This document shows, in pieces, positions 21,424 through 52,507 of a DNA stretch of 64,000 nt. The DNA is taken from positions 38,246 through 102,245 of the IMG/VR virus record IMGVR_UViG_2883497546_000001, one strand, 5' to 3'. The notes beneath the pieces are model-generated. The model searched no databases. It saw only the letters and a list, made by a program, of their open reading frames with translations, and was not told where the DNA came from. This DNA comes from a virus. Lineage: Duplodnaviria; Caudoviricetes. The position numbers and the translations under genes were made by a program. Positions within the stretch are counted from its first letter, which is position 1. Every line of letters starts with the position of its first letter.

Positions 21424-21483
21424 ATCCTCCCTCGGATGGGTCCGTGCGTACTCCTCCAATCTCAGATCATAAATAGCCTCCCC

Positions 21484-22011
21484 ATGTCCCGCCGCACGAA
21501 GCTCATCATCACCACTCTCTTCCTCGTGTTGCTTGCCATTCCCGCGGTGCATTTCTATTTCCATTGGCGACCAGAGAATCCATTGCGCTTCCAGATCGGC
21601 AACGCTGGAGCGGGCTTTCCTCTGAATCCACATGACCTAAGAGTGCCTGTCATCGTCCGCAACTCCAGTGCCACGCCCATCCATCTCCAGTTCGCTATCA
21701 TCGCGACGAAGAAGAAGGAGCAGGTTGGCGCCATCCTGCCTCCAGTGTGGCTCGGGTCCAAGACGTACGACGAAGTCGTCCCTCCCTACGGTACCTTGGA
21801 AATGTATTGCTCGGAGAGGAACTTTATCGCTGACGCGCGCGCTCCCGGGTATCTGCAGGTAGCGTACATCTGGGATTCTAACCTCAGGTACCGGGCGAAG
21901 TCCCTGTATGGAGACCTTGGCTATCGCATCTCTCAGTGGCTGTCCCTCGACCTCCCTTACATCTCTCCTGAAAGCGACACCGCACCGCTGGAAATCGACA
22001 CGGGAAAGTGA
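21484..22011 (+). CDS. Array paralogue 4 (175 aa), related to 2
   Basis: MSRRTKLII..VHFYFHWRPENPLRF. Confidence 0.9.
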   Translation: MSRRTKLIITTLFLVLLAIPAVHFYFHWRPENPLRFQIGNAGAGFPLNPHDLRVPVIVRNSSATPIHLQFAIIATKKKEQVGAILPPVWLGSKTYDEVVPPYGTLEMYCSERNFIADARAPGYLQVAYIWDSNLRYRAKSLYGDLGYRISQWLSLDLPYISPESDTAPLEIDTGK

Positions 22012-22098
22012 ACTTGCTCCATCATCCCCGTCCCCTTCCTCCCCGCACCTTGATTTGAAATCCCCAATCACAAATCAAAAAATCATAAATAGCTCCCC

Positions 22099-22689
22099 AT
22101 GTCCCGCCGCACGAAGCTCATCATCGCCGCGCTCTTCCTCGTGCTGCTCGCCGTTCCCGCAGCCTACGTCGCACTCACCTGGCATCCCGCATTCCCGCTG
22201 CGCTTCCATCTTGAAAGCATCGACTCGGAACCGTTGGAAGAAGACCCTCGCTATCGGGGGCTGCGCGTGCGTGTTGAAAACACCAGCCCGATCCCGGTGC
22301 ATATTTGCGGAGGTATGCTGTATACGAACTTTGGAATACCTGTCTTTGGCGGTCCTGAAGGGCTCCTTCTGCCACTCGAGTTTAGAGACGGCATTCCATC
22401 GAGGAACCCTGATGAGCCGGTGATCGTTCCCGCACACGGAGAACTCCACATTCGCGGTGCCCTGGGCGCCAAACTGACGCAGATCCCGCAGGGAGGGGAA
22501 ATTTCCGTGCAATGCACGTGGGAAACCGCAACACGTGCCGGGGCTGGACGTGCGGTGAATTGGATCAGATACAGCTGTCCGCAATGGGAGACAGGGCGGC
22601 TTCCCATGATAGAGCCCCTGAGAACGACAGTGCCGCTGGAGACCAAAGGTCACGCACCAGCACCACCGCAAGAACCATCCGCACCCTGA
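22099..22689 (+). CDS. Array paralogue 5 (196 aa)
   Basis: MSRRTKLII..WHPAFPLRF..VENTS. Confidence 0.9.
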   Translation: MSRRTKLIIAALFLVLLAVPAAYVALTWHPAFPLRFHLESIDSEPLEEDPRYRGLRVRVENTSPIPVHICGGMLYTNFGIPVFGGPEGLLLPLEFRDGIPSRNPDEPVIVPAHGELHIRGALGAKLTQIPQGGEISVQCTWETATRAGAGRAVNWIRYSCPQWETGRLPMIEPLRTTVPLETKGHAPAPPQEPSAP

Positions 22690-22736
22690 TTTGAAATCCC
22701 CAATCACAAATCAAAAATCATAAATAGCGCTTCCCC

Positions 22737-23291
22737 ATGTCCCACCGCACAAAGCTCATCATCGCCGCGATTTTCCTCGTGCTGATCGCCATCCCGGCGG
22801 CATACGTCATACGCACCTGGCATCCTACCAATCCGCTTCGATTTCGGTTTTCCGAGGTCCACCCTGAGGCGGACCTCAAAAAGGGCATTCGCAAGATCAC
22901 TGTCACCGTGGAAAATGCCAGCGATGCTCCCGTCCAGCTCTACGGTGCGAGTATCGAAGTTCCCAACAGCAAGGGCAGGGCGCCTGAGCGGGCCGGCTTC
23001 TGCGGTCCCTGGAGTCATAGCTCGATTGGTGGCGCGAGTAGACCTGTCAGGTTCGTGGTGGTCCCGGCCCGGGGTACCACCCGCATCACCGCTGAGCTCC
23101 GTACTGAATATATGACGGATGGCAAAAGCGGCCGCCTTCAGGTGACCTATCATTGGATGTCAGTGACGAAGTCCAAAAGTGCCGGACTGTTTAAATGGAT
23201 CCACGGAGGCAGCCCGCAATGGTTGCGCAGCCTCAGCCCTGATTTCAAGATCAAGCCTGATATTGCTCCCCTGGAAGGAGTCGCAGAGTAG
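22737..23291 (+). CDS. Array paralogue 6 (184 aa)
   Basis: MSHRTKLII..WHPTNPLRF. Confidence 0.9.
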   Translation: MSHRTKLIIAAIFLVLIAIPAAYVIRTWHPTNPLRFRFSEVHPEADLKKGIRKITVTVENASDAPVQLYGASIEVPNSKGRAPERAGFCGPWSHSSIGGASRPVRFVVVPARGTTRITAELRTEYMTDGKSGRLQVTYHWMSVTKSKSAGLFKWIHGGSPQWLRSLSPDFKIKPDIAPLEGVAE

Positions 23292-23368
23292 TCGCCGGCC
23301 CGCATCAACTCCCAAGGTCTCCCAGCTCTCCCTTTCAAATCATCAATCAAAAATCATAAATAGTCCTC

Positions 23369-23989
23369 ATGTCCCGCCGCACGAAGCTCCTCATCACCCT
23401 GCTCTTCCTCGTGCTGCTCGCCATCCCCGCGGTGTACGTCGCCCTCACCTGGAGTCCCGTGAACCCCCTGCGCATCCGCATCGCACCCGCCGCAGGGAGG
23501 GCTCCACTGCCCATCGAGCCCTTAGGCTACTACGTGCTGCCCATTGAGGTGGAGAATACAAGCTCCACCACCGTGCATCTGATGCATGTGTCACCTAGCA
23601 TCAGTCCTCCATCCAGTACGTCACGCGGAGATTCTGCGGTGGAATTACCCTTTCTTCTAAACCACATTAGGAGCTTCAGCATCGTCATCCCACCACACAG
23701 CACTGTCCCCGCGCATCTGACTATCTATCGCAAGGACCTCGCCATTGCGGAGCTGAACGGCTCCCTCTGGGCTAAATATGGGTGGGTCTCCATAAGGAAG
23801 GCCACCACCATGAGATTCATGGAGTGGATTGGCTCCTTCCCGCCTGGCTCGTGGTGTGAGCCTGTGCCACATCCCCGACCTGACTATGACTCCGTACCCG
23901 TGGAGTTTCCCAAAGGCACCGCCGCCTCTTTTGGCATCTCTCTGGAACCCACGTCTGGCTTTGAAGGCAGGGGCCCTCTCTCCAGATAA
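23369..23989 (+). CDS. Array paralogue 7 (206 aa)
   Basis: MSRRTKLLI..WSPVNPLRI. Confidence 0.9.
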   Translation: MSRRTKLLITLLFLVLLAIPAVYVALTWSPVNPLRIRIAPAAGRAPLPIEPLGYYVLPIEVENTSSTTVHLMHVSPSISPPSSTSRGDSAVELPFLLNHIRSFSIVIPPHSTVPAHLTIYRKDLAIAELNGSLWAKYGWVSIRKATTMRFMEWIGSFPPGSWCEPVPHPRPDYDSVPVEFPKGTAASFGISLEPTSGFEGRGPLSR

Positions 23990-24124
23990 AGATAAGGTCT
24001 GGCACCGGCACTCATCCCATTTTGCATTTTTCATGCATCACTTTTCACTTTGCATTTCTACGGCCCGCACCAGCGCATTGATTTGAAATCTCCAATCTCA
24101 AATCATCAATCATAAATAGCCCCG

Positions 24125-24730
24125 ATGTCCCGCCGCACGAAGCTCATCATCCTCGCGCTCTTCCTCGTGTTGCTCGCCATCCCCGCGGCATACGTCGCCC
24201 TCACCTGGCATCCACAGAATCCCCTCCACTTCCACCTGGAGCGCATCCATCAGGCCTCGGAGCTGGACCACAAGGGCGGCCGCAGGCTCCGCATCAGAGT
24301 TGAAAATTCCAGTCACGCGGAAATCCACCTCTTCAAGGTCCTCATGGAAGAGCAGGGGAACAGTCCGGACTGGGTGGACCATTCTGGGTTTATCAACGCA
24401 GAATCTCAGCGCGAGCAGGGGATTCAAGTGCAGGAGCATGCCATCATCATCCCTCCCCGGAGCACCATCCACCTCACCGGATATCTTCGTCCTGAGCTGC
24501 TGTCCTCCGCACAGCAGGGCCGCATCGCTGCCCACTACTACTGGAATTCCCAAATCATCCGAAAGTCGGAGCGGGGAATGCGTTGGTTCAATCAACACAG
24601 TCCACGGATGCTGCGGAATCTCATCTTCCTGCCTGAGTACCTCGTGGATGAGGCTCCACTGGAATCCGCCCCAGGTGTGGAGATTCCCCCAACTCCACCA
24701 CCACCCGCCACCACTCCCACCCGTGAGTGA
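24125..24730 (+). CDS. Array paralogue 8 (201 aa)
   Basis: MSRRTKLII..WHPQNPLHF. Confidence 0.9.
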   Translation: MSRRTKLIILALFLVLLAIPAAYVALTWHPQNPLHFHLERIHQASELDHKGGRRLRIRVENSSHAEIHLFKVLMEEQGNSPDWVDHSGFINAESQREQGIQVQEHAIIIPPRSTIHLTGYLRPELLSSAQQGRIAAHYYWNSQIIRKSERGMRWFNQHSPRMLRNLIFLPEYLVDEAPLESAPGVEIPPTPPPPATTPTRE

Positions 24731-24785
24731 TTTGAAATCTCCAATCATAAATCATAAATCATAAATCATAAATAGCGTCCCTCCA

Positions 24786-25337
24786 ATGTCCCGCCGCACG
24801 AAGCTCATCATCCTCGCAGTCTTCCTCGTGCTGCTCGCCATCCCCGCGGCATACGTCGCGCTCACCTGGAGTCCGAAGGATCCCTTGCGCGTCCGTTTGA
24901 TCAGTATGGATATGCCGGGGGAGCAGGATCCATTCAAACAAATGACCATGCGCATGGAGTTGGAAAATACCAGTACGGTCCCCATTTTCGTTGGCGATGT
25001 GGTATTCCGCGCCCGGCGGAAAACCGGCGTCAATGGCGATCCTATGTTCCAGAGAATCTACCTTTTCTCACCGGACGGTTCGTCGAACTGGTTCCACACC
25101 ATCGCACCGCGCAGCACGCAACTTTTCTCTGCAGATGTCACCGGGTACGACCAGGCGACGGTGGACATGGACAGCGCCGAGATGGTGTACCTTTACGAAA
25201 GTGATACGGAACATCGCATCAATGAACTCTGGAGTCGCGGCATCGAGCGCGTCCCTTATTGGATCACAAAACACTTGCCCGAGCCATTGAGCGACAGTGA
25301 CCAGGCTGCGGCATCCATCGAGCCCCCACCTCACTAG
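24786..25337 (+). CDS. Array paralogue 9 (183 aa)
   Basis: MSRRTKLII..WSPKDPLRV. Confidence 0.9.
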   Translation: MSRRTKLIILAVFLVLLAIPAAYVALTWSPKDPLRVRLISMDMPGEQDPFKQMTMRMELENTSTVPIFVGDVVFRARRKTGVNGDPMFQRIYLFSPDGSSNWFHTIAPRSTQLFSADVTGYDQATVDMDSAEMVYLYESDTEHRINELWSRGIERVPYWITKHLPEPLSDSDQAAASIEPPPH

Positions 25338-25396
25338 AAGAGGCGAAGCGTTCCTGGCAATAGCTGTAGATAGTATCGTGCCAATCTTCTCCCCCC

Positions 25397-25504
25397 ATGT
25401 CCCGCCGCGCAAAGCTCATCCTCCTCGCGCTCTTCCTCGTGCTGCTCGCCATCCCGGTGACATATATCGCCCTCACCTGGCATCCGAACCTAGCGGTCGA
25501 GTAG
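25397..25504 (+). pseudogene. Leader-only array stub (35 aa)
   Basis: Translates MSRRAKLILLALFLVLLAIPVTYIALTWHPNLAVE-stop; homology ends at WHP. Confidence 0.85.
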
Positions 25505-25570
25505 CATCAGAGGGATGAACACTTTGCATTTTTCATTCATCACTTTTCACTTTGCATTCCCCTTCGCGAA

Positions 25571-25972
25571 ATGAGCTCTACCGTCCTCTCCCAAGCCCTC
25601 GCCCTCTACGACAGGGCAGGGGAGACCCAGACCGGGACCCCAACACAATCCCGCACCTTCGAGGAGGACCTCGCCGCCTTCATCCACACCGGCCGCGTCT
25701 ACATCACGCCCACCTGCGTCCTCTTCGCCAAAGCCGTCCCATCTCACCGCGAGTACCACGAGCCCTGGGACACCTGGGAGCCGCATGAGTGCGATGCCTG
25801 GCTCGTCTGGCTCGCCGCCGGAGACCTCGCCGAGTTTTTCCAATACGTGCCCTACGAGCTCCCGTGGCTCGTCTGGGCCCGCCGCGACCGCCTGCGTAAG
25901 TGGCCCTACGACCTCGCCCGCCGCCACATCCTGCAGGAGCACGCAACCGCCGCACTCGAAACTCCCTCCTAA
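25571..25972 (+). CDS. Phage-type hypothetical protein embedded in the array
   Basis: 133 aa, FEEDLAAF, DAWLVWLAAGDL and LPWLVWAR motifs; strongly C-ending codons like terL; not an array paralogue. Confidence 0.75.
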   Translation: MSSTVLSQALALYDRAGETQTGTPTQSRTFEEDLAAFIHTGRVYITPTCVLFAKAVPSHREYHEPWDTWEPHECDAWLVWLAAGDLAEFFQYVPYELPWLVWARRDRLRKWPYDLARRHILQEHATAALETPS

Positions 25973-26047
25973 GAGTTATCCTTCCCCACGCGTCTCCATT
26001 TTTGAGATCTCAAATTTGAACTCTCAAAGCTCAAATCATCAATATCG

Positions 26048-26545
26048 ATGTCCCGCCGCACCAAGCTCATCCTCCTGGGCATCTTTCTCGTCCTGCTCGC
26101 CATCCCGGTCTGGCATGTGGCCAGCAACTGGAATTCTCCGAACCCGCTGCGATTCCGTCTGGTGAGCCGGGAGAAAGATGGCAAGTATAGCGAGCGGGTG
26201 GTGATTGAGGCGCGCAATACCAGCACCTCGGCGAGGTGCATCCAGTCCGTCGTGTTGCAGCGCGTCCAGGAGCCTTACCCGCCGTTTCTGGGGGTCATCG
26301 AGCTCGGCCCGGTGATACCTGCCGGCGGCACCTTGCGCGGCAGCACCTCGGTGCCCTTGTCAAACAGGGCATCCACCGAACCTGAGGCCTTGGAAGTCAC
26401 CTATTTCCAGGCATCCATCGCGCGTCGCAAGATGCTTCAGTGGTATGGATCGATTTTGACGCGTCTCCCCAAATTCCAACATAAGCCTCTCTTGAGGCCG
26501 TCCATCTACGTGGAGTCAGAAGTGACCCTGGAGTCATCTCGCTGA
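26048..26545 (+). CDS. Array paralogue 10 (165 aa), WHV.SNW subfamily
   Basis: MSRRTKLIL..WHVASNWNSPNPLRF. Confidence 0.9.
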   Translation: MSRRTKLILLGIFLVLLAIPVWHVASNWNSPNPLRFRLVSREKDGKYSERVVIEARNTSTSARCIQSVVLQRVQEPYPPFLGVIELGPVIPAGGTLRGSTSVPLSNRASTEPEALEVTYFQASIARRKMLQWYGSILTRLPKFQHKPLLRPSIYVESEVTLESSR

Positions 26546-26859
26546 TATCTCATCGCATCTCATCGATGGCATAGCGCGCGAAGCGCAGGGCCATCAGGCC
26601 AGGAAACCACAGGTGATCGTATCAGGGAGCTGGCACCGTGCAGCACCACTCAGTGCACCAGATCGCTTTGCGTCTTGGAGTGCGGTGGCACGGGCCTCCC
26701 TGGAGGCCACGACACCGCTTTGAACGGAGGAGTCTTGTCCTGATGTCCTGGAGAACGTCACCGGAATCCAGTATTCAAAGCCCGCGTCAAAGAGGGACCC
26801 TGGGAACTTGAAGTGACGTACCGCACATCACTCCCCTAATTAGAGCATTTTCATTAAAA

Positions 26860-27187
26860 CTATAGCCATAAGTGAGGCGAATAAGGGCGTACTCGTCCCG
26901 GAGGGACGCTGGATGGTAGTCGGTGGTGGAGGCCTGTAATCAGGCCGGGAACCACCGGATCATGGAGGAAAAAGATGCTCCGTCCCGGATGGGACGGCGG
27001 AAGAGGTGGCGATCGTCTTTTCCTCGTGCCAGGAGACTGTGGTGCTCTTCCGGCGTCCCATCCGGGACGCAAGAGCGTTTGGTACGTGGATCCGGTGGTT
27101 GCGGTCGCTGAGGCTCCCTACACCACCGGCTACCATCCGGCGTCCCTCCGGGACGAGCTGCCAAAGCTCAATTTGAACTGGCTATAG
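26860..27187. mobile_element. MITE/REPIN-like nested inverted-repeat element
   Basis: Termini CTATAGCCA..TGGCTATAG; inner arms CGTCCCGGAGGGACG..GGTAG.CGGTGG paired with their reverse complement; no transposase. Confidence 0.65.
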
Positions 27188-27331
27188 CGTTATTTAAAAT
27201 CTCTAGGGCCGCCCCGAGGGCCTTCGTCCACCTTCACCACGAGTGGCCACCCATTCACCCTGACGTTCCACCTCAGTCTGATTTGAGATTTGAGATTTGA
27301 AATTTGGAATCTCAAATCATAGATATCCCCC

Positions 27332-27916
27332 ATGTCCCGCCTCACGAAGGTCACGCTCCTCCTGGTCAGCCTCCCCCTGGTTTCCCTTGCGGCGGTGGTG
27401 CTCCTCCTCACCTGGTCGCCGGCGGATCCTCTACGCTTCCGCCTTCTCCACGTACCCGTGCATGTGAATGCTTCCACGGTCAGTGACACCTACACATCCA
27501 TCCCTCCCTTTGAGATGGAACTGCGAAACACCAGTTCCTTTCCCATCGCGCTCCAAGACATCAACTTCGAAGACCGGGGGCGCGCCGCATATCAGGGTGC
27601 GTTCATCTACGCGAGGCCCCCAGATATGGAAGAGAAAGTCTTGAGCTACGCCCAAGTCACCATTGCAGGTCACGAGACCCTTCGCATCTCGTATGATCCT
27701 GGTCCCTTCGCCGTGCCGGCGATGGTCGCGGATAAGCCAGACATCCGCTACCGCTGGAAACTCAGCATCCTCGACAAGCTGGAGAGCGGCTTGAAGGATG
27801 GCCTGAGGAAATACGGTCCCGAAGCATGGTCCGGACTTCTCCCTGGTATCGAGTTAACCACCACCCTGGCGCCACTCGACGTCTCCGCCTTCAAGCCCAC
27901 CCCGGCTACTCCTTGA
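27332..27916 (+). CDS. Array paralogue 11 (194 aa)
   Basis: MSRLTKVTL..WSPADPLRF. Confidence 0.9.
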   Translation: MSRLTKVTLLLVSLPLVSLAAVVLLLTWSPADPLRFRLLHVPVHVNASTVSDTYTSIPPFEMELRNTSSFPIALQDINFEDRGRAAYQGAFIYARPPDMEEKVLSYAQVTIAGHETLRISYDPGPFAVPAMVADKPDIRYRWKLSILDKLESGLKDGLRKYGPEAWSGLLPGIELTTTLAPLDVSAFKPTPATP

Positions 27917-28013
27917 AACACCACGGCATCCCATGATTTGAAATCTCAAATCATAAATCATAAATCATAAATTGCCTCCGCGTCTCCCCATCTCCGTCCC
28001 TTCCTAGCTCCCC

Positions 28014-28571: not shown

Positions 28572-28864
28572 CCATGCCAGCACGATCCAAAGCCTTCCAG
28601 GCCTAGGTGTGTTGGAAGGTGCAGTTTACAGGATAGCCCCGAGGGCCTTCGTCCACCCACACCGCGAGTCGCCACCCGCTCACTCTGGCGCTCCACCCCT
28701 TTCCTCCTCGTACTCGTCATGGACTTCCCTTGCTTGCACGCTCGCACGCCGCACCGCAAGATGCAGAGAGGCACCGTGCTTTGGAACGAGCCTCCCCTGG
28801 AAGAACTCAATGCTGATGCTGATATCCCCTCGCTCCCGGCCCGCGACTGGCCCTTCTCCTGGAT

Positions 28865-43123: not shown

Positions 43124-43195
43124 AGGATAAGACAAATTTGCATGCCACCCGTAATCTCCGATTTCAAATTCCAATTCTGAAATCATAGATACGGC

Positions 43196-45359: not shown

Positions 45360-45449
45360 ATATCGCCACCCACCCACGCTGACGGTCCACCCAGAAGGAG
45401 ATTTGAGATTTGAGATCTCAAATTTCAAATCTCAAATCATAAACAGCGC

Positions 45450-46049
45450 ATGCCTCGCCACACCAAGCTTCTCATCGCCCTCACCCTGCTCGTGCTGCTC
45501 GCCATCCCTGCGATCTATGTAGCCTGCACCTGGAGCACGGAGAATCCGTTGCGCTTTGAAGCAGTGCGCCTGGAGAAGGACCCGTCACCCGTCGGAAGTA
45601 CGAAGCACGACCTGCTTCACCTGACCGTGAGGAATGTCAGCAAGCTGCCCGTCCATCTCTCCTTCGCGTCATTGCACCAGAAGAATCCTCACGACGCCGC
45701 TGCGGATGCCGTGCAGATAGGCGCCTTGATGCCGGACTTGCAGGACCGTCCTGAGAAGGGTCCGCGTCCTCTTCTCCTGCCCCCGGGCGGATCCATGCAG
45801 TGCATCGCCTACATCTCAGTCGATGGGGTGGGGGCACCGGAGGCATTGCGGGATATCGACGTGGGCTATTACTGGCGCTCGGATACTGCGGAGCGGGTGT
45901 GTTCCCTCTGGACCGGGTACAGTCACGTGCTCATGGGACCGGCGAAGAGTCGAATCTTACGACACGGAGATGCCCACCACCGCAGCCCACTCATACTCCC
46001 CGCCACCGCTTCCCCTCAGCCATCCTCGGGACAGGGGAGTGGTAAGTGA
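45450..46049 (+). CDS. Array paralogue 29 (199 aa), close to 31
   Basis: WSTENPLRFEAVRLE. Confidence 0.9.
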   Translation: MPRHTKLLIALTLLVLLAIPAIYVACTWSTENPLRFEAVRLEKDPSPVGSTKHDLLHLTVRNVSKLPVHLSFASLHQKNPHDAAADAVQIGALMPDLQDRPEKGPRPLLLPPGGSMQCIAYISVDGVGAPEALRDIDVGYYWRSDTAERVCSLWTGYSHVLMGPAKSRILRHGDAHHRSPLILPATASPQPSSGQGSGK

Positions 46050-46100
46050 CACCATCACCCACTCTGTGCCTTTGTTTTCCTTTTCACTCCGCAGCTCCTT

Positions 46101-46739
46101 ATGTCCCGCCGCGCGAAGCTCATCCTCGCCTCCCTCTTCCTCGTGCTGCTCGGCATTCCCGTCGCCTACATCGCGCTCACCTGGCATGTGGCAGACCCCT
46201 TTCGCTTCCGCTATGTCGGGCATGGAGAAGTGGAGATGCGGCCAGCACACCCTTTCATGACAGGCGGAGCGGGCACGGAGATGCAGACTACAGACCCTTT
46301 CTTTACAGGTGGAAAAGGCAAGGAGATACCCATGGTGCCGATATACATCGAGCTGCAGAATACGACGAGTGTGCCCATCAGCCTCATCGACGGAGACGTG
46401 AGGGGAAAGCTCGACAGGGCAGGTCCGCCATGTGCCCGTATCGAGTGGAGGCGGGGTCCCATTCCCCGCCATGGCACCGTCCGTCTGGTGTCCTACGTGC
46501 CTGTGGCGAATCTCCAGCGCCTGGAAAGCGAATCGCTCGACGTCTCCTACCTCTCGGTCAGCGGGACCCAGAGCACCGCCTATGACCTGGACCGGTGGTT
46601 GAGGGAAAAACTGTTCCTGCCGTTTCACATCGACATCAATCTCATCCCCTCAAGCGTGGACGCATCCGTGACCCCGCTCTTAAAAGCCCCGGCTCACCCT
46701 CCGGAGGCTTCCCCTGCCGCCTCGACTCAGCAACCCTGA
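46101..46739 (+). CDS. Array paralogue 30 (212 aa), VADP subfamily
   Basis: WHVADPFRFRYVG. Confidence 0.9.
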   Translation: MSRRAKLILASLFLVLLGIPVAYIALTWHVADPFRFRYVGHGEVEMRPAHPFMTGGAGTEMQTTDPFFTGGKGKEIPMVPIYIELQNTTSVPISLIDGDVRGKLDRAGPPCARIEWRRGPIPRHGTVRLVSYVPVANLQRLESESLDVSYLSVSGTQSTAYDLDRWLREKLFLPFHIDINLIPSSVDASVTPLLKAPAHPPEASPAASTQQP

Positions 46740-46863
46740 ATGGCGCCGGCTATCCAAACCACGGATAATGACTAAGATAGGGACTGGGATAACGATGACG
46801 AGGACAGTTCACCAAACGATGGATAGCCCGGAGGCCTTTTGTCGCCTTTTTGACACGCTCGTC

Positions 46864-47350
46864 AGCCCCTGAGGCACCATGGGCTCTAAACGTTAGCGTC
46901 CCTCCACAAAAATGGACGGTAGGGATGCGCTCCTGCGCGTCCGTAGATCGCGGGCGGAGGCGGGGGAGGGGATGCCGCGTCGCGAGGCCGCTTCGTGCCG
47001 CAGCTCCACACCACCTCCGCCCACCTGAAGTCGGACGCGCCATGAGCTTGTCCAGCGCATGCCTACCGCATCTTTGGTGAAGGGGCGCTTGCCTTGAAGT
47101 ATGTTTCATCGTCGAAACAAAGACACCCGCGAGCCCCTGAGGCACCATTAACTCTAAACGTTAGCGTCCCTCCACAAAAATGGACGGTAGGGATGCGCTC
47201 CTGCGCGTCCGTAGATCGCGGGCGGAGGTGGGGGCAGGGGATGCCACGTCGCGAGGCCGTTTCGTGCTGCAACTCCAGACCGCCTCCGCCCCCTATTTTC
47301 GGACGCGCAGGAGCGCATCCCTACCGCATCTTCGGTGAAGGGGCGTTTGC
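46864..47350. repeat. Tandem duplication (about 268-bp period) of a REPIN-like unit (GGTAGGGATGCGCTCCTGCGCGTCCG and reverse complement)
   Basis: Two near-identical units starting AGCCCCTGAGGCACCAT at about 46864 and 47132. Confidence 0.85.
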
Positions 47351-47799
47351 CTTTGAAGGACGTAGTCCGCGGAACCGCTTCGACTGTGCTTCGCAGTCTA
47401 CTGCGAAAGGCCGGAGCGATGGGCCTGAGGTGTGCCGGGCCGTTCTGGCGCCGCTTTCAGGGCGCAATGCATGTTGAGATGCCCTGTCCCAGGGAATCGG
47501 TCCCGTTCGGGCCCATCATCCCTGCGCTGGATTCGTGCGACCCTTCGGGCCGCGTACTGACTCAGCACCGACCGGTGCCACTCACCACCGTCGAGAATCC
47601 ATCTTATGTTAGTGCTTATTGGCAGGAGTGCCCCGATCCTCATACAGGGCTGTCGCCCCGGCTCCGCTTCGCCACGGCATCGTCCACCCCAGGAGTCATG
47701 CTGGAATGCTGGGTCATGGTGAGTCCCTGCCACTCCGTCGACGCGATACCGAAAAAACGTTCTCGATCTGAGCTCATCCATCCCCAATCATCGATAGCG

Positions 47800-48396
47800 A
47801 TGCCCCGCCGCACCCCGCTCCTCATCCTTATCACCCTGCTCGTGCTGCTCGCCACCCCTGCGATTTATGTGGCCTGCACCTGGAGCACGGAGAATCCCCT
47901 GCGCTTCGAAGCGGTGCGCCTGGAGATGGAACCCTCACGCGGAGTGAAGGAGGTCGGCATTCTCCACCTGACCGTGAGGAATGTCAGCAAGCTGCCCGTT
48001 TATCTCACCTTCGCGGGATTGAAGCAAAAAAATGCCAGCGGTGCCAGTGCTGCCTTCCAGGTGGTAGGCGGCATCGTCCCGCGGTTGCAGGACCGCCCTG
48101 GGGACCCCTCCAGTGCTCTTTACCTGCCGCCGGGCGGGTCCATGCAGTGCCGCGCCTACATCGTGGTCCAGGACGTGCATTCACCGAAGGCCTTGCAGGA
48201 TATTGATGTGAACTATCACTGGCGCTCCGGCACCGGCGAGAAGGCGCACACCTTCTGGGCACAACACATCTACCAGACCACGGACTGGCTTGAGAAACTG
48301 ATTCCCGCACCAGATCTGCAGCGCCACCGCAGCCCACTCACGCTCCCCGCCACCGCTTCCCCCCAGCCATCCCCAGGGCAGGGGAGTGGCAAGTGA
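47800..48396 (+). CDS. Array paralogue 31 (198 aa)
   Basis: MPRRTPLLI..WSTENPLRFEAVRLE. Confidence 0.9.
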   Translation: MPRRTPLLILITLLVLLATPAIYVACTWSTENPLRFEAVRLEMEPSRGVKEVGILHLTVRNVSKLPVYLTFAGLKQKNASGASAAFQVVGGIVPRLQDRPGDPSSALYLPPGGSMQCRAYIVVQDVHSPKALQDIDVNYHWRSGTGEKAHTFWAQHIYQTTDWLEKLIPAPDLQRHRSPLTLPATASPQPSPGQGSGK

Positions 48397-48497
48397 CGCC
48401 ATCACCCAGTCCCATCCTATCTACAGCCTCGACTCATCCCCCATTTCTCTTTTCACTTATCCCTTTTCACTCCGTCTCCGCATCTCCGCATCTCCCC

Positions 48498-49136
48498 ATG
48501 TCCCGCCGCGCCAAGCTCCTCATCACCGCGCTCTTTATCGTGCTGCTCACGGTACCGGTGGTGTACGGTTGTCTCTTCTGGTCCATCGAGCAGCCCTTGC
48601 GCTTCCGTTGCATCACCGTGCTTCCGGAGGATACAGGCAAGCTGCTTATCTCGCTGCCTCATGAGCCGGTCGTCCCCTTCATCTTCGAGGTACAAAACAC
48701 CAGGCCCTACCCCGTGTACTTCCAGGACATGAGTATCTTGGCATACTATCCGGAGTCGCCACTGCCGGATGGATACCTTTCCATGGACTATGTCACACGC
48801 AGCGTGCGGGATAAATCTTTGTGGGCCGCTCCGAGCCTGTACGGGCAATACATTCCCGCCCACGGCGTGACCCGCTTCGAAGTGCTCATGCGTCCGAAAA
48901 CCGTCAGCGAATTTGAAACGGGCAAAATCAAACTCGTCTCGTTTTGGGCAAGTGTTCCCAGAAGGCTGGCATACGACGCGCGAAACTGGGTGCACCCACG
49001 CCTGCGCAAAACGCTCAGGTTTGCGAGGCTCCCCTATGTGTCATCATCCCAGCAAGGCCCCGCCACCCTCGAAGGCCTGCCGGTCGTTATTCCTCGTCCC
49101 GTCATGAGCTCCCCGCCATCCCCACCACCTCCCTGA
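48498..49136 (+). CDS. Array paralogue 32 (212 aa)
   Basis: FWSIEQPLRFRC. Confidence 0.9.
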   Translation: MSRRAKLLITALFIVLLTVPVVYGCLFWSIEQPLRFRCITVLPEDTGKLLISLPHEPVVPFIFEVQNTRPYPVYFQDMSILAYYPESPLPDGYLSMDYVTRSVRDKSLWAAPSLYGQYIPAHGVTRFEVLMRPKTVSEFETGKIKLVSFWASVPRRLAYDARNWVHPRLRKTLRFARLPYVSSSQQGPATLEGLPVVIPRPVMSSPPSPPPP

Positions 49137-49203
49137 CATTCCTCCAAAAACGATTTCAGATTTGAAATCTCAAATCATAAATCATAAATCATAAATAGCC
49201 CCC

Positions 49204-49824
49204 ATGTCCCGCCGCACGAAGCTTCTCATCACCGCGCTCTTCCTCGTGCTGCTCGGCATTCCCGTGGGGTATGCCATCCTCTTCTGGTCCGTGGATCAGC
49301 CCCTGCGCTTCCGTTGCGTCACCGCGCTTCCGCAGGAGATGGCACAGGGACATCCCATGATGCCTCCTGAGACCGTCATTCCTCTCATCTTCGAAGTGGA
49401 AAACACCAAGCCGTATCCCGTCTACCTCTCGAACGTGATCATCCGGGAGTACACGCCGGGTTCGTCATCGCCTGATGGATATTTTCCCTTGAATTATCAC
49501 TCGCGCAAAGCGCCGGCCAGATCTTCGTCAGCCGTACCAAGCTTGTCCGCGCAATCCATTCCGGCCCATGGCGTGACCCGCTTCGAAGTGCTCATGAATC
49601 CGGCAGCCGCCCGCACACTCGGGCCGGACAAGGTAAGACTCATCCCTCATTGTGCCAGTCCTCCCAGGAAATGGGCGATCGATGCGCAAAACTGGTTGCG
49701 CGCCCGCCTTCCTGAAAAACTCGGCTTCGCGAAGCTCCCCCCAATCCCGTTCCAGAATAGCCCCGCCGCCCTCGAAGGCCCACCGGTCATTATTCCCCGC
49801 CCCGTTATGAGTTCCGCGCCCTGA
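49204..49824 (+). CDS. Array paralogue 33 (206 aa), close to 32
   Basis: FWSVDQPLRFRC. Confidence 0.9.
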   Translation: MSRRTKLLITALFLVLLGIPVGYAILFWSVDQPLRFRCVTALPQEMAQGHPMMPPETVIPLIFEVENTKPYPVYLSNVIIREYTPGSSSPDGYFPLNYHSRKAPARSSSAVPSLSAQSIPAHGVTRFEVLMNPAAARTLGPDKVRLIPHCASPPRKWAIDAQNWLRARLPEKLGFAKLPPIPFQNSPAALEGPPVIIPRPVMSSAP

Positions 49825-49889
49825 CGTTCCTCCAAATGAGTTTTCAGATTTGAAATCTCAAATCTCAAATCTCAAATCATCAATAGCCC

Positions 49890-50438
49890 ATGTCCCCCCG
49901 CACGAAGATAACCATCCTCTCCGTCTTCCTCCTCCTGCTCGGCCTTCCCGCGATCTATGTCGCGCTCACCTGGCAAGTGGCAGCCCCCTTTACCTTCCGG
50001 TACCTGGAGCGTGGCGAACCGCAGAAGTCGCTATTCACCCCCTCTGGCAGCTCTCCCTCGACTCCTTTGGTGCCCATATTCCTCGAGGCGCAGAACACCA
50101 GCAGTCGCCCCGTCCACCTCGGCGGGGTAGAGCTGCGGGCGCGCAGCGGGGGTCCCCGACAGCTCGTCTACACCATGTGGGGAGGACCTCCCATCCCGCC
50201 CCAGGGCACCGCCCGCGTGCAGGTCCTCGTGGATCCGGCAACGGCCCAGCGCGTGACACGCGAGGACTTCGAGGTCTCCTACAGGGCATTCAGCAAGACC
50301 AAAGAGAAGACAAAAGACATCTTCTATAAGCTGAAAAGCATGGCCCCGTCACTCCTGCACCGGGACGCGGATCCATTCACCAGCGCGAAGGATGAATTCG
50401 TGACCCCGCTCATCATCGACCCGGCCCACCAGGAATAG
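49890..50438 (+). CDS. Array paralogue 34 (182 aa), VADP-related
   Basis: WQVAAPFTFRY. Confidence 0.9.
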   Translation: MSPRTKITILSVFLLLLGLPAIYVALTWQVAAPFTFRYLERGEPQKSLFTPSGSSPSTPLVPIFLEAQNTSSRPVHLGGVELRARSGGPRQLVYTMWGGPPIPPQGTARVQVLVDPATAQRVTREDFEVSYRAFSKTKEKTKDIFYKLKSMAPSLLHRDADPFTSAKDEFVTPLIIDPAHQE

Positions 50439-50494
50439 ATTCCAGATTTGAGATCTCAAATTTCAGATCTCAAATCTCAAATCATCAAGAGCCC

Positions 50495-51085
50495 ATGCCC
50501 CGCCGCTCCAGAGGCATTCTCGCAGCCAGCATCATCACCGTCATCCTGCTTGGCCTGGCGCTCGCGTTTTATGTCGTCCTCGGGCTGCCGGTGAATCCCC
50601 TGCGGTTCCGCCCCATCGCCTACCTGGAGCACGACATGCTTCCCGTGGGCTTGCCCAAGAGTGGCGCGGAGTACGTTCACATGGCCGTGGAGAACACGTC
50701 CAACTCCACCGTGTATCTCGCGACGGCGGCTGTGCTCAGCGCGGGCCCATCGAAGAAATACACCCTCGCCTATCTCTCGCATGAGGAGCAGGGGCTGCTT
50801 GGTGCATCCTCCCCCCTCCGTGGCTATGTCATCGTCATTCCACCACGCAGCACCGTCCCTTGTATTGCCTCTGCCCCATCCGGGCGCCTAGTGGAACTCA
50901 GCCTCGGAATCGCGCCCGTGCAGTATGAGTGGACCACCGACGAAAGGTACCAGCTCCTGGAGGCCTGCGAGCGCATGTACCCCTACCTTCCCACGAGGCT
51001 CCGGTCTCACCTCCCTGCGCCCGGCATGCGCCACGATACCATCCCCCTCGAGCTCCCGCCAAACACCCCCGGCCCCAGTGAATAA
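50495..51085 (+). CDS. Array paralogue 35 (196 aa)
   Basis: MPRRSRGIL..LPVNPLRF..VENTS. Confidence 0.88.
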   Translation: MPRRSRGILAASIITVILLGLALAFYVVLGLPVNPLRFRPIAYLEHDMLPVGLPKSGAEYVHMAVENTSNSTVYLATAAVLSAGPSKKYTLAYLSHEEQGLLGASSPLRGYVIVIPPRSTVPCIASAPSGRLVELSLGIAPVQYEWTTDERYQLLEACERMYPYLPTRLRSHLPAPGMRHDTIPLELPPNTPGPSE

Positions 51086-51353
51086 TCAGAGCTCCTGCTC
51101 TTCATCGCATCCCCACCCACACCCATCTTCCGACTTGAAGTCTCAAACCACGGATGATGATTGCGACGACGAAGACGACAGCAACAACAACAACAATGCC
51201 TCGCCCGAATCTGGATAGCCCGAAGGCCCTTCGTCCACCCGCACCACGAGTCGCCACCCACCCACACTGACGCTCCACCCGGAAAGAGATTTCAGACGTG
51301 AGCTCCCAAATCTAAAATCATAAATCATAAATCAAAAATCATAAATAGCCCCC

Positions 51354-51950
51354 ATGTCCCGCCGCACGAAGCTCCTCATCACCACGCTCTTCCTCGTGCT
51401 GCTGGCCATGCCCATGGCATACGTCGTCCTCGCCTGGCATCCGCAGAATCCACTGCGTTTCCGCCAATTGGATGAGAAGGCCACCTATTACGCGTTCCCG
51501 TCGCCGGGTGGCTTGGTGGAAAAGGAATACCACAGCAGAATGATGATGGAAGTGCGGAACACCAGTGCTGCCACCGTACTGTTCATCTCAGGACATTTCA
51601 TCGGAGACTCGTCAGAAGGAAAGGAGGCATTCCGTGCCCAATGGTTTGCGCCTCCGGGACACATTGAAGCGCACCCCATCCCCCCAGGCGGCGCCATCCA
51701 GGTGGAGTTTCATTCCGCAACCGTGCTGGCCACGGCGGACCTCAATCTCCTGCAAGCGGGGAAACTCCGCCTCCGGGACGGGGTTATGCGGTACCAGTGG
51801 GGCTCCCACGTCCAGGCATCGACCTCGGGTGCATGTATCTGGCTTCGTGAAAGGTTGCCTGAATCCCTCGCAGACCACCTGCCCCACATGCTTCCGTTCG
51901 AAGACACCATCGACATGGATCTCCCGCCACCCACAAATCAAAAATCATAA
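51354..51950 (+). CDS. Array paralogue 36 (198 aa)
   Basis: WHPQNPLRFRQL..WGSHVQASTS. Confidence 0.9.
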   Translation: MSRRTKLLITTLFLVLLAMPMAYVVLAWHPQNPLRFRQLDEKATYYAFPSPGGLVEKEYHSRMMMEVRNTSAATVLFISGHFIGDSSEGKEAFRAQWFAPPGHIEAHPIPPGGAIQVEFHSATVLATADLNLLQAGKLRLRDGVMRYQWGSHVQASTSGACIWLRERLPESLADHLPHMLPFEDTIDMDLPPPTNQKS

Positions 51951-51973
51951 ATCAAAAATCATAAATAGCCCCC

Positions 51974-52507
51974 ATGTCCCGCCGCACGAAGCTCCTCATC
52001 ACCGCGCTCTTCCTCGTGCTGCTCGGCATCCTCGCGGTGTATCTGTTTCAATCATGGAAGCCGGAGAACCCCCTCCGCTTTCAGGTGGTGTCTGTCACTT
52101 CACCCACTCCAGCTACCGGCAGGCAATATCATCCTTATCTGCTGGAGTTCACCGTGACGAATACCTCCAGGGTGCCCATGACTCTGCATTTCGCGCGTCC
52201 GGCATTTCCACATCCCACGGGGAAACCGGATTATCTTCTCGACCATACAAGCGATTTCAAGATTCCAGCAGGCCGTACCGTCCGGTTCAAGCAACCCGTC
52301 ACCGGGCATTTTCAGCAAGGCGTCCTCGCACGTGAGCCCATCCCCGTGGAGTACTACTGCTCGTCAGCCTCCCAGCGATACGTGGCGGATGCCCTGGTCC
52401 GCCTGTACTTTGAATGTCCTGAAAAGTACCGGAAACTGATTCCCCGGACAGAGATGACCAGGTGGGAGACACCCCTCCAGCCCGCATCTCCACCGGTCAA
52501 TCCTTGA
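51974..52507 (+). CDS. Array paralogue 37 (177 aa)
   Basis: WKPENPLRF..EFTVTNT. Confidence 0.9.
   Translation: MSRRTKLLITALFLVLLGILAVYLFQSWKPENPLRFQVVSVTSPTPATGRQYHPYLLEFTVTNTSRVPMTLHFARPAFPHPTGKPDYLLDHTSDFKIPAGRTVRFKQPVTGHFQQGVLAREPIPVEYYCSSASQRYVADALVRLYFECPEKYRKLIPRTEMTRWETPLQPASPPVNP

What the first reader, a model, noticed from the sequence alone, without database searches (positions are those of the whole stretch)
21481..52030. The first 60-100 coding bases form a DNA-level direct repeat
Seen: CCCATGTCCCGCCGCACGAAGCTC(A/C)TCATCACCGCGCTCTTCCTCGTGCTGCTCG(C/G)CAT recurs almost verbatim (e.g. 22099, 23369, 24125, 24786, 31605, 32874, 49204, 51354, 51974), synonymous positions included. Signal anchors are usually the least conserved part of paralogues; here they are the most conserved, and downstream domains look less codon-biased. 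Inference: the leader is homogenised by conversion or crossover and serves as the recombination handle.
Basis: partly seen in the sequence, partly recalled or inferred. Interest (0 to 1): 0.8.

Follow-up and report, generated by a model that had tools for sequence, protein, structure and literature searches.

The report
Recombining leader in membrane-protein gene array
About 42 neighbouring genes for small membrane-anchored proteins in a soil Verrucomicrobium share a nearly letter-identical first 60 bases while the rest of each gene is unrelated at silent sites, most likely because the copies keep overwriting each other's front ends, a known process seen here in a new and unusually large gene family.

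Summary
Window 19037-56376 holds 42 same-strand paralogues plus one leader-only stub.

**What the genes encode.** Each has an N-terminal membrane anchor and an Ig-like/LEA_2-like beta-sandwich. The family has no Pfam, NCBIfam, PHROG or PADLOC match. It was found only in the window's genus, Roseimicrobium (named from R. gellanilyticum records), beside a phage terminase gene.

**Silent-site contrast.**

| Region | pS |
|---|---|
| Codons 2-21 | 0.31 |
| Codons 22-40 | 0.61 |
| Domain | 0.68 |

- Same-residue codon identity is 0.79, against 0.41 expected from codon usage.
- Leucine codon choice is position-specific.

**Tree tests.** Twenty well-supported domain clades are rejected by the leader (AU p=0.0002). 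They are not rejected by the adjacent 57 nt (p=0.195).

**Array versus dispersed copies.**
- Copies outside the arrays keep the leader peptide but use consensus codons only at the codon-usage rate (0.50 versus 0.79, p=5e-7).
- The effect therefore belongs to the array, not to the family. This favours short-tract conversion or unequal crossover, probably GC-biased (leader GC3 0.93).

**Limits.**
- Single events are not individually significant.
- A nucleotide-level function is not excluded.
- The "recombination handle" purpose is inferred.

**Earlier scan notes.** The scan has noted comparable 5'-block homogenisation in tandem pilin genes on other DNA, but not in this family.

The parts
19037..56376 (+). 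Whole tandem array: 42 paralogous genes (165-229 aa) plus one stub. All lie on the + strand. Most spacers are 23-270 nt, and eight gaps of 0.57-2.1 kb have no recognisable gene.
   Evidence: HMM search of all six-frame ORFs of the genome. Starts and ends. Gaps. Gap ORFs have no Pfam, PHROG or PADLOC hit.
24125..24184 (+). Reference copy of the 60-nt leader block (2 mismatches to the array consensus). It encodes the cytoplasmic MSRRTK stretch and most of the membrane helix.
   Evidence: AlphaFold2 helix at residues 3-28.
24185..24244 (+). Junction of the reference copy (codons 21-40: end of the helix plus W-x-P-x-N-P-L-x-F). It is conserved as protein, but its silent sites are saturated.
   Evidence: pS 0.61 and pN 0.34. 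Its tree is congruent with the domain tree.
24245..24730 (+). Variable ectodomain of the reference copy: an Ig-like/LEA_2-like beta-sandwich with the E-N-T-S, I-P-x-H-G-T and Y-x-W-x-S motifs.
   Evidence: AlphaFold2 pLDDT 93. Fold searches. Alignments A1 and A2.
19037..19618 (+). Family gene, 14/60 leader mismatches. Orthologue in R. gellanilyticum with 49% domain identity.
19758..20294 (+). Family gene, 5/60 leader mismatches.
20875..21423 (+). Family gene with a non-canonical leader (17/60). Its orthologue in the sister species has 72% domain identity but only 56% leader identity.
21484..22011 (+). Family gene, 7/60.
22099..22689 (+). Family gene, 5/60. Its orthologues on metagenome contigs L036 and L042 carry different leader blocks.
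22737..23291 (+). Family gene, 9/60.
23369..23989 (+). Family gene, 6/60.
24786..25337 (+). Family gene, 2/60. Its first 60 nt are identical to those of a non-orthologous gene on contig L036. Its own orthologue there carries another block.
25397..25504 (+). Leader-only stub: a complete leader, then a stop after 35 codons.
26048..26545 (+). Family gene of the W-H-V subfamily, 8/60. Its sister on L036 carries the canonical central block instead of the subfamily block.
27332..27916 (+). Family gene with a non-canonical leader (21/60). Orthologue in the sister species has 56% domain identity and 44% leader identity.
28014..28571 (+). Family gene, 6/60.
30433..30942 (+). Family gene of the W-H-V subfamily, 11/60.
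31019..31528 (+). Family gene of the W-H-V subfamily, 7/60. Together with the next gene it marks a duplication unit that ends at +55.
31605..32180 (+). Family gene, 6/60. Its upstream 400 nt through +55 match those of 31019, although the two domains are unrelated.
32233..32757 (+). Family gene of the W-H-V subfamily, 8/60.
32874..33437 (+). Family gene, 3/60.
33494..34048 (+). Family gene with a non-canonical leader (19/60). The leader is kept in its L040 orthologue but is canonical in the R. gellanilyticum orthologue.
35377..35964 (+). Family gene with a diverged leader (23/60). Its junction is 88% identical to that of its neighbour 36115.
36115..36678 (+). Family gene, 8/60.
37051..37593 (+). 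Family gene, 9/60.
37845..38420 (+). Family gene with CTG at the start position and a shortened anchor. Possibly decaying.
38995..39546 (+). Family gene, 11/60. Its leader is 98% identical to that of 39819, with no silent difference.
39819..40367 (+). Family gene, 11/60.
42434..43123 (+). Family gene, 20/60.
43196..43792 (+). Family gene, 21/60.
43960..44556 (+). Family gene, 11/60.
44772..45359 (+). Family gene, 14/60.
45450..46049 (+). Family gene, 15/60.
46101..46739 (+). Family gene, 7/60.
47800..48396 (+). Family gene, 14/60.
48498..49136 (+). Family gene, 13/60.
49204..49824 (+). Family gene, 7/60. Together with 49890 it marks a second duplication unit, ending at +60.
49890..50438 (+). 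Family gene, 11/60.
50495..51085 (+). Family gene with the most diverged leader (29/60).
51354..51950 (+). Family gene, 7/60. It shares a 62-nt exact run (-32 to +30) with 51974, although the two domains are unrelated.
51974..52507 (+). Family gene, 6/60.
52551..53063 (+). Family gene with a GTG start, 11/60.
53131..53679 (+). Family gene with a GTG start, 22/60.
53794..54342 (+). Family gene, 23/60.
54444..55097 (+). Family gene, 14/60.
55825..56376 (+). Last family gene, 12/60.
17030..18622 (+). Left boundary: phage terminase large subunit gene. It is 90% nt identical in R. gellanilyticum, where the array also starts right after it.
   Evidence: tblastn gives 31-32% identity to phage terminases. 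Weak Terminase_6C hit. Synteny.

Best explanation
**What the array is**
- It is an old birth-and-death family of bitopic membrane proteins. Each has a cytoplasmic MSRRTK stretch, one membrane helix and a periplasmic beta-sandwich.
- The ectodomains are saturated at silent sites.

**Proposed mechanism**
- The first ~60 coding bases of the array copies are kept alike by recurrent short-tract homologous recombination between the tandem copies. This means gene conversion patches of a few tens of bases and occasional unequal crossovers.
- Two ~26-nt conserved blocks flank a variable centre (codons 8-13). They are the only DNA homology between otherwise unrelated units, so exchanges start and end there.
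- This overwrites new silent and replacement changes alike. It uncouples each ectodomain from the leader and promoter in front of it. It also generates duplications and deletions of units of the form [ectodomain + spacer + next leader].
- A GC bias of conversion, and/or a preference for common codons, holds the same consensus in different lineages.
- Copies whose leader drifts too far leave the pool and then diverge freely.

**Shown and inferred**
- Shown: the silent-site contrast, its restriction to arrays, and the incongruence of leader and domain trees.
- Inferred: the recombination mechanism itself, its GC bias, and any benefit of the 'handle'.
For: **(1) Silent-site contrast**
- pS is 0.305 in codons 2-21, 0.61 in codons 22-40 and 0.675 in the domain. 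pN is equal (0.30 and 0.34) in the first two.
- Observed codon identity is 0.79 against 0.41 expected. Leu codons are position-specific.

**(2) The effect is array-specific**
- Dispersed family members in both genomes use the consensus codon at 33/66 = 0.50 of consensus-residue positions. Array copies use it at 824/1043 = 0.79 (Fisher p=5e-7).
- The value of 0.50 matches the ~0.52 that the codon table gives by hand calculation.
- Dispersed orthologue pairs show the normal pattern in the same codons: pS 0.36-0.65 and pN 0.10-0.23.

**(3) Incongruence with a matched control**
- Twenty domain clades are rejected by the leader (AU p=0.0002) but not by the adjacent junction (p=0.195).
- Leader identity is uncorrelated with domain identity (rho 0.06), whereas junction identity is correlated (rho 0.36).

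**(4) Concrete mosaics**
- The first 60 nt of 24786 are identical to those of a non-orthologous gene on contig L036. Meanwhile the two orthologue pairs (24786/L036+520 and 22099/L036+1133) have swapped central blocks at the same four sites.
- The L036 sister of 26048 carries the canonical block, letter-identical to that of 36115, inside a subfamily that otherwise has another block.

**(5) Decoupled leader divergence**
- In close pairs, leader pS is sometimes far below the domain pS (38995/39819: 0.00 versus 0.21).
- Sometimes it is far above (35377/36115: 0.59 versus 0.33).

**(6) Further indications**
- Leader GC3 is 0.93 against 0.76 in long ORFs of the genome. This is the expected trace of GC-biased conversion.
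- Local alignments between unrelated genes end at +50 to +70. Two duplication units end at +55/+60.
- Array content has turned over. Only about 5 of the 42 genes have a recognisable orthologue in the syntenic 51-gene array of R. gellanilyticum.
Against: - Single discordant clades are not rejected individually (AU p 0.17, 0.32, 0.22).
- Exact shared runs are short (median 13 nt, 99th percentile 32 nt), and few pairs have identical leaders.
- Leader similarity does not fall with distance in the array (rho -0.03).
- Leader similarity is not linked to silent-site similarity in the junction, so tract ends do not visibly vary.
- The 63-nt consensus of the two species differs at three replacement positions and at no silent position. 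Their neutral divergence is roughly pS 0.12-0.5. Unbiased neutral conversion alone would predict several silent differences.
- Within-genome silent identity is only slightly higher than between-genome identity.
- The linkage of ectodomain to downstream spacer is not significant (Wilcoxon p=0.11).
Confidence: 0.6

Rival explanations
1. The first 60 bases are a functional nucleotide element specific to the array genes. It could be the 5' end of short-leadered or leaderless mRNAs needed for Shine-Dalgarno-independent initiation. It could also be a shared binding site for a regulator or small RNA. Purifying selection on the bases themselves would then keep them alike. Recombination would be incidental.
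For: - The same codons are used in the two species and on five metagenome contigs. The consensus has no silent difference between them.
- Conservation starts sharply at -3 and ends at about +60 in most pairs.
- There is no Shine-Dalgarno sequence. The upstream region is AT-rich, with promoter-like hexamers ending 13-16 nt before several start codons.
- There is no distance effect and no linkage to the junction.
- Variable and invariant silent sites are broadly the same in both genomes.
Against: - Dispersed family members keep the peptide but not the codons.
- About a quarter of array genes have lost the element, yet they stay intact with constrained domains.
- RNAalifold finds no consensus structure. 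Rfam has no match there.
- No complementary copy exists elsewhere in the genome.
- This reading does not explain the tree conflict or the block swaps between orthologue pairs.
- Conservation is clearly weaker in the sister genome. Silent codon identity there is about 0.4-0.9 per site, against 0.8-1.0 here.
Confidence: 0.2
2. The array is a programmed cassette system. The leader repeats, with the heptamer-repeat spacers, would be sites at which a dedicated recombinase or a phage function moves ectodomain cassettes into an expressed position or exchanges them between elements.
For: - There are direct repeats at every unit boundary. The array sits in a phage-derived region next to the terminase gene in both species.
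- Array content has turned over almost completely between species.
- A leader-only stub is present.
Against: - Every unit has its own start codon and full leader, and most have promoter-like AT-rich spacers. There are no silent, 5'-truncated cassettes.
- No recombinase was found among the non-family ORFs of the array.
- All repeats are direct, so site-specific exchange would only delete.
- The repeat is imperfect and graded rather than a fixed core site.
Confidence: 0.07
3. General codon selection acts at the start of genes for exported or membrane proteins, such as choice of C-ending codons to avoid mRNA structure or to set translation speed. This would produce the apparent repeat without copying.
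For: - The leader is pyrimidine-rich (43% C, 21% G) and predicted to be unstructured.
- Nearly all third positions are G or C.
Against: - CTC and CTG, and GTG rather than GTC, are fixed at particular positions (p=2e-22).
- Dispersed copies with the same peptide are at the codon-usage expectation.
- This reading does not predict tree conflict.
Confidence: 0.05
4. The copies are recent duplicates. Their ectodomains diverged extremely fast under diversifying selection, and the leader simply shows their true young age.
For: - Ectodomain dN/dS of close pairs is high, at 0.33-0.84.
- Tandem duplicates are visible in the array.
Against: - Silent sites of the junction and domain are at saturation even at invariant residues. 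Codon identity there is 0.41 against 0.40 expected. Positive selection does not raise silent change.
- Orthologues across species can have more diverged leaders than unrelated paralogues have.
Confidence: 0.03

Closest known systems
Tandem lipoprotein-like (lpl) paralogue cluster of Staphylococcus aureus (Tsuru and Kobayashi 2008, PMC2568036)
   Same: - Tandem paralogues each carry a highly conserved nucleotide block that is proposed as the site of homologous recombination.
- Trees of the regions on either side of the block are incongruent.
- The evolving unit spans the 3' part of one gene, the spacer and the 5' part of the next gene.
- Gene content of the cluster differs between genomes.
   Different: - In lpl the block lies in the middle of the ORF, between two variable regions, and the evidence came from more than ten genomes of one species.
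- Here the block is only ~60 nt, sits at the very start of the ORF and encodes the membrane anchor.
- There are 42-51 copies here.
- The unit test is only suggestive (two clear cases, p=0.11).
- Only two genomes and short metagenome contigs were available.
erp (OspE/F-related, 'upstream homology box') genes of Borrelia cp32 prophages (review PMC10016077)
   Same: - The genes are prophage-borne surface or envelope proteins.
- They share one promoter/leader segment, while the rest of the ORF comes from many unrelated sequences that recombine.
   Different: - erp genes are lipoproteins with a lipobox and a conserved promoter/operator. They sit one locus per plasmid, across many plasmids.
- The genes here have an uncleaved anchor without a lipobox.
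- Upstream DNA shares only heptamer-repeat motifs.
- All ectodomains belong to one fold family.
- All copies sit in one chromosomal tandem array.
Concerted evolution of the 5' block of tandem type IV pilin genes
   Same: A conserved hydrophobic N-terminal helix is followed by a variable beta domain. The 5' block is homogenised between neighbouring genes.
   Different: - There is no prepilin peptidase motif and no Glu5.
- No assembly genes were seen.
- The structural match to archaeal pilins is only Z 5.6-7.0, within the tool's noise range.

Membership tests
Segmental concerted evolution in a tandem paralogue cluster (lpl type) | A nucleotide block conserved in every copy, silent sites included, next to variable regions | tested here: met
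   pS is 0.305 in the leader against 0.61 and 0.675 downstream. Codon identity is 0.79 against 0.41 expected.
Segmental concerted evolution in a tandem paralogue cluster (lpl type) | Phylogenies on the two sides of the block boundary are incongruent | tested here: met
   The joint constraint of 20 clades is rejected by the leader (AU p=0.0002) and accepted by the junction (p=0.195). Three single clades are each not rejected.
Segmental concerted evolution in a tandem paralogue cluster (lpl type) | The conserved unit spans the variable region, the spacer and the next gene's 5' part | tested here: inconclusive
   There are two clear units ending at +55/+60. Downstream spacers score 16.1 against 12.0 for upstream spacers (Wilcoxon p=0.11).
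Segmental concerted evolution in a tandem paralogue cluster (lpl type) | Homogenisation depends on the tandem context | tested here: met
   Dispersed copies score 0.50 against 0.79 for array copies (p=5e-7). Dispersed orthologues have pS 0.36-0.65 in the same codons.
Segmental concerted evolution in a tandem paralogue cluster (lpl type) | Recent rearrangements between strains are bounded by the block | not testable with these tools
   Only two genomes of the genus carry an array. The metagenome contigs are 3-6 kb long.
Borrelia erp / upstream-homology-box type | Conserved promoter and operator DNA upstream of the shared leader | tested here: not met
   Column conservation upstream of -3 is 0.3-0.6. 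Only heptamer-repeat motifs recur, and several genes have quite different spacers.
Borrelia erp / upstream-homology-box type | Lipoprotein signal with a lipobox cysteine | tested here: not met
   No Cys follows the hydrophobic stretch in the consensus. A 26-residue helix is predicted as an anchor.
Type IV pilin-like proteins | Class III signal: Gly/Ala before the hydrophobic helix, and Glu at +5 | tested here: not met
   The consensus M-S-R-R-T-K-L-I-I has no Gly/Ala cleavage motif and no Glu5.
Type IV pilin-like proteins | Fold: N-terminal helix plus beta-sandwich matching solved pilins | tested here: inconclusive
   Archaeal pilins match at Z 5.6-7.0 with rmsd 4.5-6.9, within the range the tool calls common.
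LEA_2 (PF03168) | Pfam profile match | tested here: not met
   There is no Pfam hit at E up to 1 for seven members.
LEA_2 (PF03168) | LEA_2-type beta-sandwich fold behind an N-terminal anchor | tested here: inconclusive
   The nearest Atlas structure cluster is 55% LEA_2, with TM 0.50/0.51. The PDB LEA14 entry 1xo8 matches at Z 5.9. The TMEM106B luminal domain appears among the Foldseek hits.
Site-specific cassette systems (integron, shufflon, recombinase-associated arrays) | A dedicated recombinase gene at the array | tested here: not met
   Non-family ORFs within the array have no Pfam, PHROG or PADLOC hit. Only an IstB/DnaC-like ATPase lies at the right edge.

The most novel reading that the evidence does not exclude
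The array is a phage-derived, recombination-driven repertoire.
- It would hold dozens of exchangeable ectodomain 'cassettes' for one membrane-anchored Ig-like scaffold.
- Each cassette would be bounded by the 60-nt leader on one side and heptamer-repeat spacers on the other.
- Units could then be gained, lost and swapped within and between Roseimicrobium strains far faster than point mutation allows.
- The products would act at the cell envelope against a matching diversity of phages or competitors' toxins, as a superinfection-exclusion or immunity repertoire.

Under this reading the leader homology would be maintained because it makes the repertoire evolvable.
Probability: 0.15. Interest if true: 0.8.

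Novelty: new member of a known kind. Interest (0 to 1): 0.45.

Why it matters
**As a case of a known process**
- It is a clean, quantifiable bacterial example of concerted evolution confined to about 60 bases.
- It comes with two internal controls that are rarely available: the adjacent 57 bases, and dispersed copies of the same family.
- It shows that a 'conserved signal anchor' can be a by-product of DNA exchange rather than of protein function. This is a caution for annotation and for motif-based inference.

**The gene family itself**
- The family may be the more interesting object. It has 42-51 fast-evolving, membrane-anchored beta-sandwich proteins of unknown function.
- It was found only in Roseimicrobium (its two other genomes held, of 40 relatives searched) and in unassigned metagenome contigs, and sits next to phage packaging genes in two species.
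- Gene content has turned over almost completely between those species.
- If it proves to be an exclusion or immunity repertoire, it would be a new kind of envelope defence in Verrucomicrobia.

Tried and rejected
**RNA and regulatory searches**
- RNAalifold on -10..+72 of 24 copies predicts no base pair.
- Rfam finds nothing in the leaders. Its only hit is an Acido-Lenti-1 match in a gap.
- No antisense or orphan copy of the leader exists elsewhere in the genome.

**Tests of recombination that gave nothing**
- Distance decay of leader similarity is absent.
- Linkage between leader similarity and junction silent sites is absent.
- Global AU tests against the full domain tree reject for both the leader and the junction. 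They are therefore uninformative, because the deep domain branches are unreliable.
- Single-clade constraints run with the fast search gave large likelihood losses for both regions. That is a search artefact, so the result was discarded. Rerun properly, three clades are not rejected.
- The clustering of differences in nt 22-45 cannot by itself separate patch conversion from a free-evolving centre between constrained flanks.
- The upstream versus downstream spacer test gives p=0.11.

**Family and fold searches**
- Pfam, NCBIfam, PHROGs and PADLOC give no family.
- There is no homologue in 50,697 phage records.
- The search for related loci could not use the alignment.
- The structure 'atlas' library was not available.

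**Divergence calibration**
- Calibration with recA failed because the wrong ORF was taken, and the gyrB pair may not be orthologous.
- Only rpoB (pS 0.12), the flanking genes and the dispersed family genes were used.

**Not attempted**
- No complex-prediction job was sent, because no binding claim is made.

Full report
**Observation**

A 21-nt piece of the reported repeat occurs 32 times in the window with up to 3 mismatches. All copies are on the + strand, and none is expected in shuffles. Each copy is the start of an ORF of about 165-230 codons.

A profile of 31 of these proteins, run over all six-frame ORFs of the 7.96-Mb genome, finds 42 members in one tandem array (window 19037-56376). 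It also finds eight dispersed members elsewhere. One further copy at 25397 is a leader followed by a stop after 35 codons. The finding's coordinates therefore cover only part of the array.

**What the genes encode**

- Seven members give no Pfam or NCBIfam hit. There are no PHROG or PADLOC hits either.
- An AlphaFold2 model from a 56-sequence alignment (pLDDT 93) has a helix at residues 3-28 followed by a beta-sandwich.
- Fold matches are generic Ig-like folds. Examples are MSP/PapD-like domains, the TMEM106B luminal domain, SgrA at Z 8.0 and LEA14 at Z 5.9. Archaeal pilins match at Z 5.6-7.0, within the range the tool calls common.
- The nearest Atlas structure cluster is LEA_2-like at TM 0.5.
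- With three positive charges before the helix, these proteins are most likely N-in, single-pass membrane proteins with a periplasmic domain. This is inference.

**Distribution and context**

- The family is small and restricted. It yields 232 clusters at 50% identity among 1.84 billion representatives.
- Among 40 relatives searched, it occurs only in the two other genomes of the genus.
- One of those genomes is Roseimicrobium gellanilyticum, according to the names.
- The window's genome fits Roseimicrobium sp. ORNL1, described as having a complete 7.9-Mb chromosome (PMC7330248). The identity is not proven.
- The array begins right after a phage terminase large-subunit gene. A portal gene lies further left, and an IstB/DnaC-like gene and a DUF1376 gene lie on the right.
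- R. gellanilyticum has a syntenic array of about 51 genes after the same terminase gene, which is 90% nt identical.

**Silent sites**

In a codon alignment of the 42 genes, pairs with the same residue have the same codon in 80-100% of cases through codon ~21. The value falls to 25-55% afterwards, even at invariant residues.

| Measure | Codons 2-21 | Codons 22-40 | Domain |
|---|---|---|---|
| pS (Nei-Gojobori) | 0.305 | 0.614 | 0.675 |
| pN | 0.30 | 0.34 | 0.61 |
| Observed codon identity | 0.79 | 0.48 | 0.41 |
| Codon identity expected from genome usage | 0.41 | 0.42 | 0.40 |
| GC3 | 0.93 | 0.76 | 0.71 |

- Two stretches that are equally conserved as protein (codons 2-21 and 22-40) therefore differ two-fold in silent divergence.
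- Leucine positions use CTC or CTG in a position-specific way (p=2e-22).
- Upstream of -3 there is no column conservation.
- Local alignments between genes with unrelated domains mostly start at -5..0 and end at +50..+70.

**Trees**

- Global tests against the whole domain tree reject for any short region and are uninformative.
- Twenty domain clades with SH-aLRT of at least 95 were therefore imposed as a constraint. Leader nt 4-63 rejects it (delta lnL 147, AU p=0.0002).
- The neighbouring nt 64-120, a control of the same size, does not reject it (delta lnL 40, p=0.195).
- Leader identity is not correlated with domain identity (rho 0.06, p=0.10). Junction identity is correlated (rho 0.36, p=6e-23).
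- Three particular clades tested singly are not rejected (p 0.17-0.32). The conflict is collective. An earlier fast-search version of those tests was an artefact and is discarded.

**Concrete mosaics**

- Gene 24786 and a gene on metagenome contig L036 have identical first 60 nt, although their domains are unrelated.
- The true orthologue of 24786 on that contig carries the block typical of 22099. The orthologue of 22099 there carries the block of 24786. The two haplotypes differ at the same four sites.
- In the W-H-V subfamily all members share one central block, except the L036 sister of 26048. That gene has the common block, letter-identical to that of unrelated gene 36115.
- In close pairs the leader can be less diverged than the domain at silent sites (38995/39819: 0.00 versus 0.21). 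It can also be more diverged (35377/36115: 0.59 versus 0.33).
- Orthologues between the two species with 56-72% identical domains have leaders only 44-56% identical. These non-canonical leaders evolve with pN about equal to pS.

**The discriminating control**

- Family members outside the arrays keep a recognisable leader peptide. There are eight in this genome and six readable ones in R. gellanilyticum.
- Where these copies have the consensus residue, they use the consensus codon in 33 of 66 cases (0.50). Array copies do so in 824 of 1043 cases (0.79) (Fisher p=5e-7).
- The value of 0.50 is what the codon table predicts (about 0.52, by hand calculation).
- Three dispersed orthologue pairs show pS 0.36-0.65 and pN 0.10-0.23 in codons 2-21. 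That is the ordinary pattern.
- The silent-site conservation is therefore a property of being in the array, not of the leader as such. A copying process between tandem copies predicts this. A sequence element required by the family does not.

**What argues for something more than neutral conversion**

- The same codons are used in R. gellanilyticum and on five metagenome contigs.
- The 63-nt consensus sequences of the two genomes differ at three replacement positions and at no silent one.
- Neutral divergence between the species is roughly pS 0.12 in rpoB, 0.2-0.25 at four-fold sites of the terminase and portal genes, and up to 0.36-0.65 in dispersed family genes.
- Within-genome silent identity barely exceeds between-genome identity.
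- Exact shared runs are short, there is no distance decay, and there is no linkage into the junction.
- A GC bias of conversion fits the GC3 of 0.93. It would leave only rare C/G transversions as neutral paths, which could reconcile these facts. This is inference.
- A nucleotide-level function limited to the array genes remains possible. However, no RNA structure, no Rfam family and no complementary sequence elsewhere support it.

**The 'handle'**

- Two duplication units are visible. The 400 nt upstream of 31605 through its +55 match the corresponding stretch of 31019, and the same holds for 49890 and 49204 through +60. In both cases the domains that follow are unrelated.
- This is what an unequal crossover between leaders would produce. 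It parallels the unit described for the S. aureus lpl cluster (PMC2568036).
- Across 32 related pairs, downstream spacers are more alike than upstream ones (16.1 versus 12.0), but not significantly (p=0.11).
- Only about 5 of the 42 genes have a recognisable orthologue in the sister array, so turnover is fast.
- That the homology is kept because it is useful is not shown.

**Comparison and verdict**

- The closest known cases are the lpl cluster (PMC2568036) and the Borrelia cp32 erp genes. In the erp genes one promoter/leader segment precedes many unrelated ectodomains (PMC10016077).
- The present case shares the principle with both.
- It differs from them in the position and shortness of the block, the copy number, the lack of a conserved promoter or lipobox, and the host phylum.
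- The scan has noted comparable 5'-block homogenisation in tandem pilin genes on other DNA, but not in this family.
- I rate the observation confirmed and the interpretation partly supported.
- The phenomenon is a new member of a known kind, set in an uncharacterised and possibly more interesting gene family.

Noticed in passing
window 19700-56470, spacers before most family genes (for example 24743-24773, 27280-27306, 44713-44760, 49172-49196, 51315-51346): - Most spacers carry 3-5 tandem copies of AT-rich heptamers (AAATCAT, AAATCTC, and GATTTGA on the complementary sense) directly before the start codon.
- GATTTGA and TCAAATC runs can pair as a hairpin.
- Copy number differs from spacer to spacer, and the same motifs occur in R. 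gellanilyticum and on metagenome contigs.
- They could be promoter or translation-enhancer elements, terminators, or slippage-prone switches.
   Followed up: partly
window 32185-32231, 35300-35376, 36040-36114, 46050-46100: - A second spacer type has no AT-rich heptamers. It has C/T-rich sequence with GCCTGTT/GCCTTTGT-like repeats.
- One R. gellanilyticum spacer has six exact GCCTGTT copies.
- Genes behind this spacer type still carry canonical leaders.
   Followed up: no
window 56379-56467: A near-perfect 12.6-copy heptamer array (CACCACT) lies directly after the last family gene, at the border with the IstB/DnaC-like gene.
   Followed up: no
window 41436-41482 (-): There is an Rfam match above the gathering score to the Acido-Lenti-1 small RNA motif (40.6 bits, E 6e-6). 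It lies inside a 2.1-kb gap of the array that has no recognisable gene.
   Followed up: no
window 5623-7323 (-), 17030-18622 (+), 56463-58260 (-): - The array sits inside a phage-derived region. It includes a portal gene (Head-tail_con, E 4e-100), a terminase large subunit, an IstB/DnaC-like ATPase and a DUF1376 protein.
- The portal and terminase genes are about 90% nt identical to those of R. gellanilyticum.
- A 37-kb array would not fit a normal podovirus genome, so the element is probably not a packaged phage in its present form.
   Followed up: partly
window 28572-30432, 34049-35376, 40368-42433, 46740-47799: Large gaps in the array contain long ORFs (for example 28865-30319 on the - strand, 484 codons). 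They have no Pfam, PHROG or PADLOC hit. Whether they are genes, decayed family members or insertions is open.
   Followed up: partly
genome G000:C1 positions 928637, 6161438 and 4752582, with orthologues in R. gellanilyticum (L044, L043, L048): Dispersed single-copy members of the family are kept as one-to-one orthologues between the two species. Array members are mostly not. The dispersed copies may represent the ancestral, stably functioning form of the family.
   Followed up: partly
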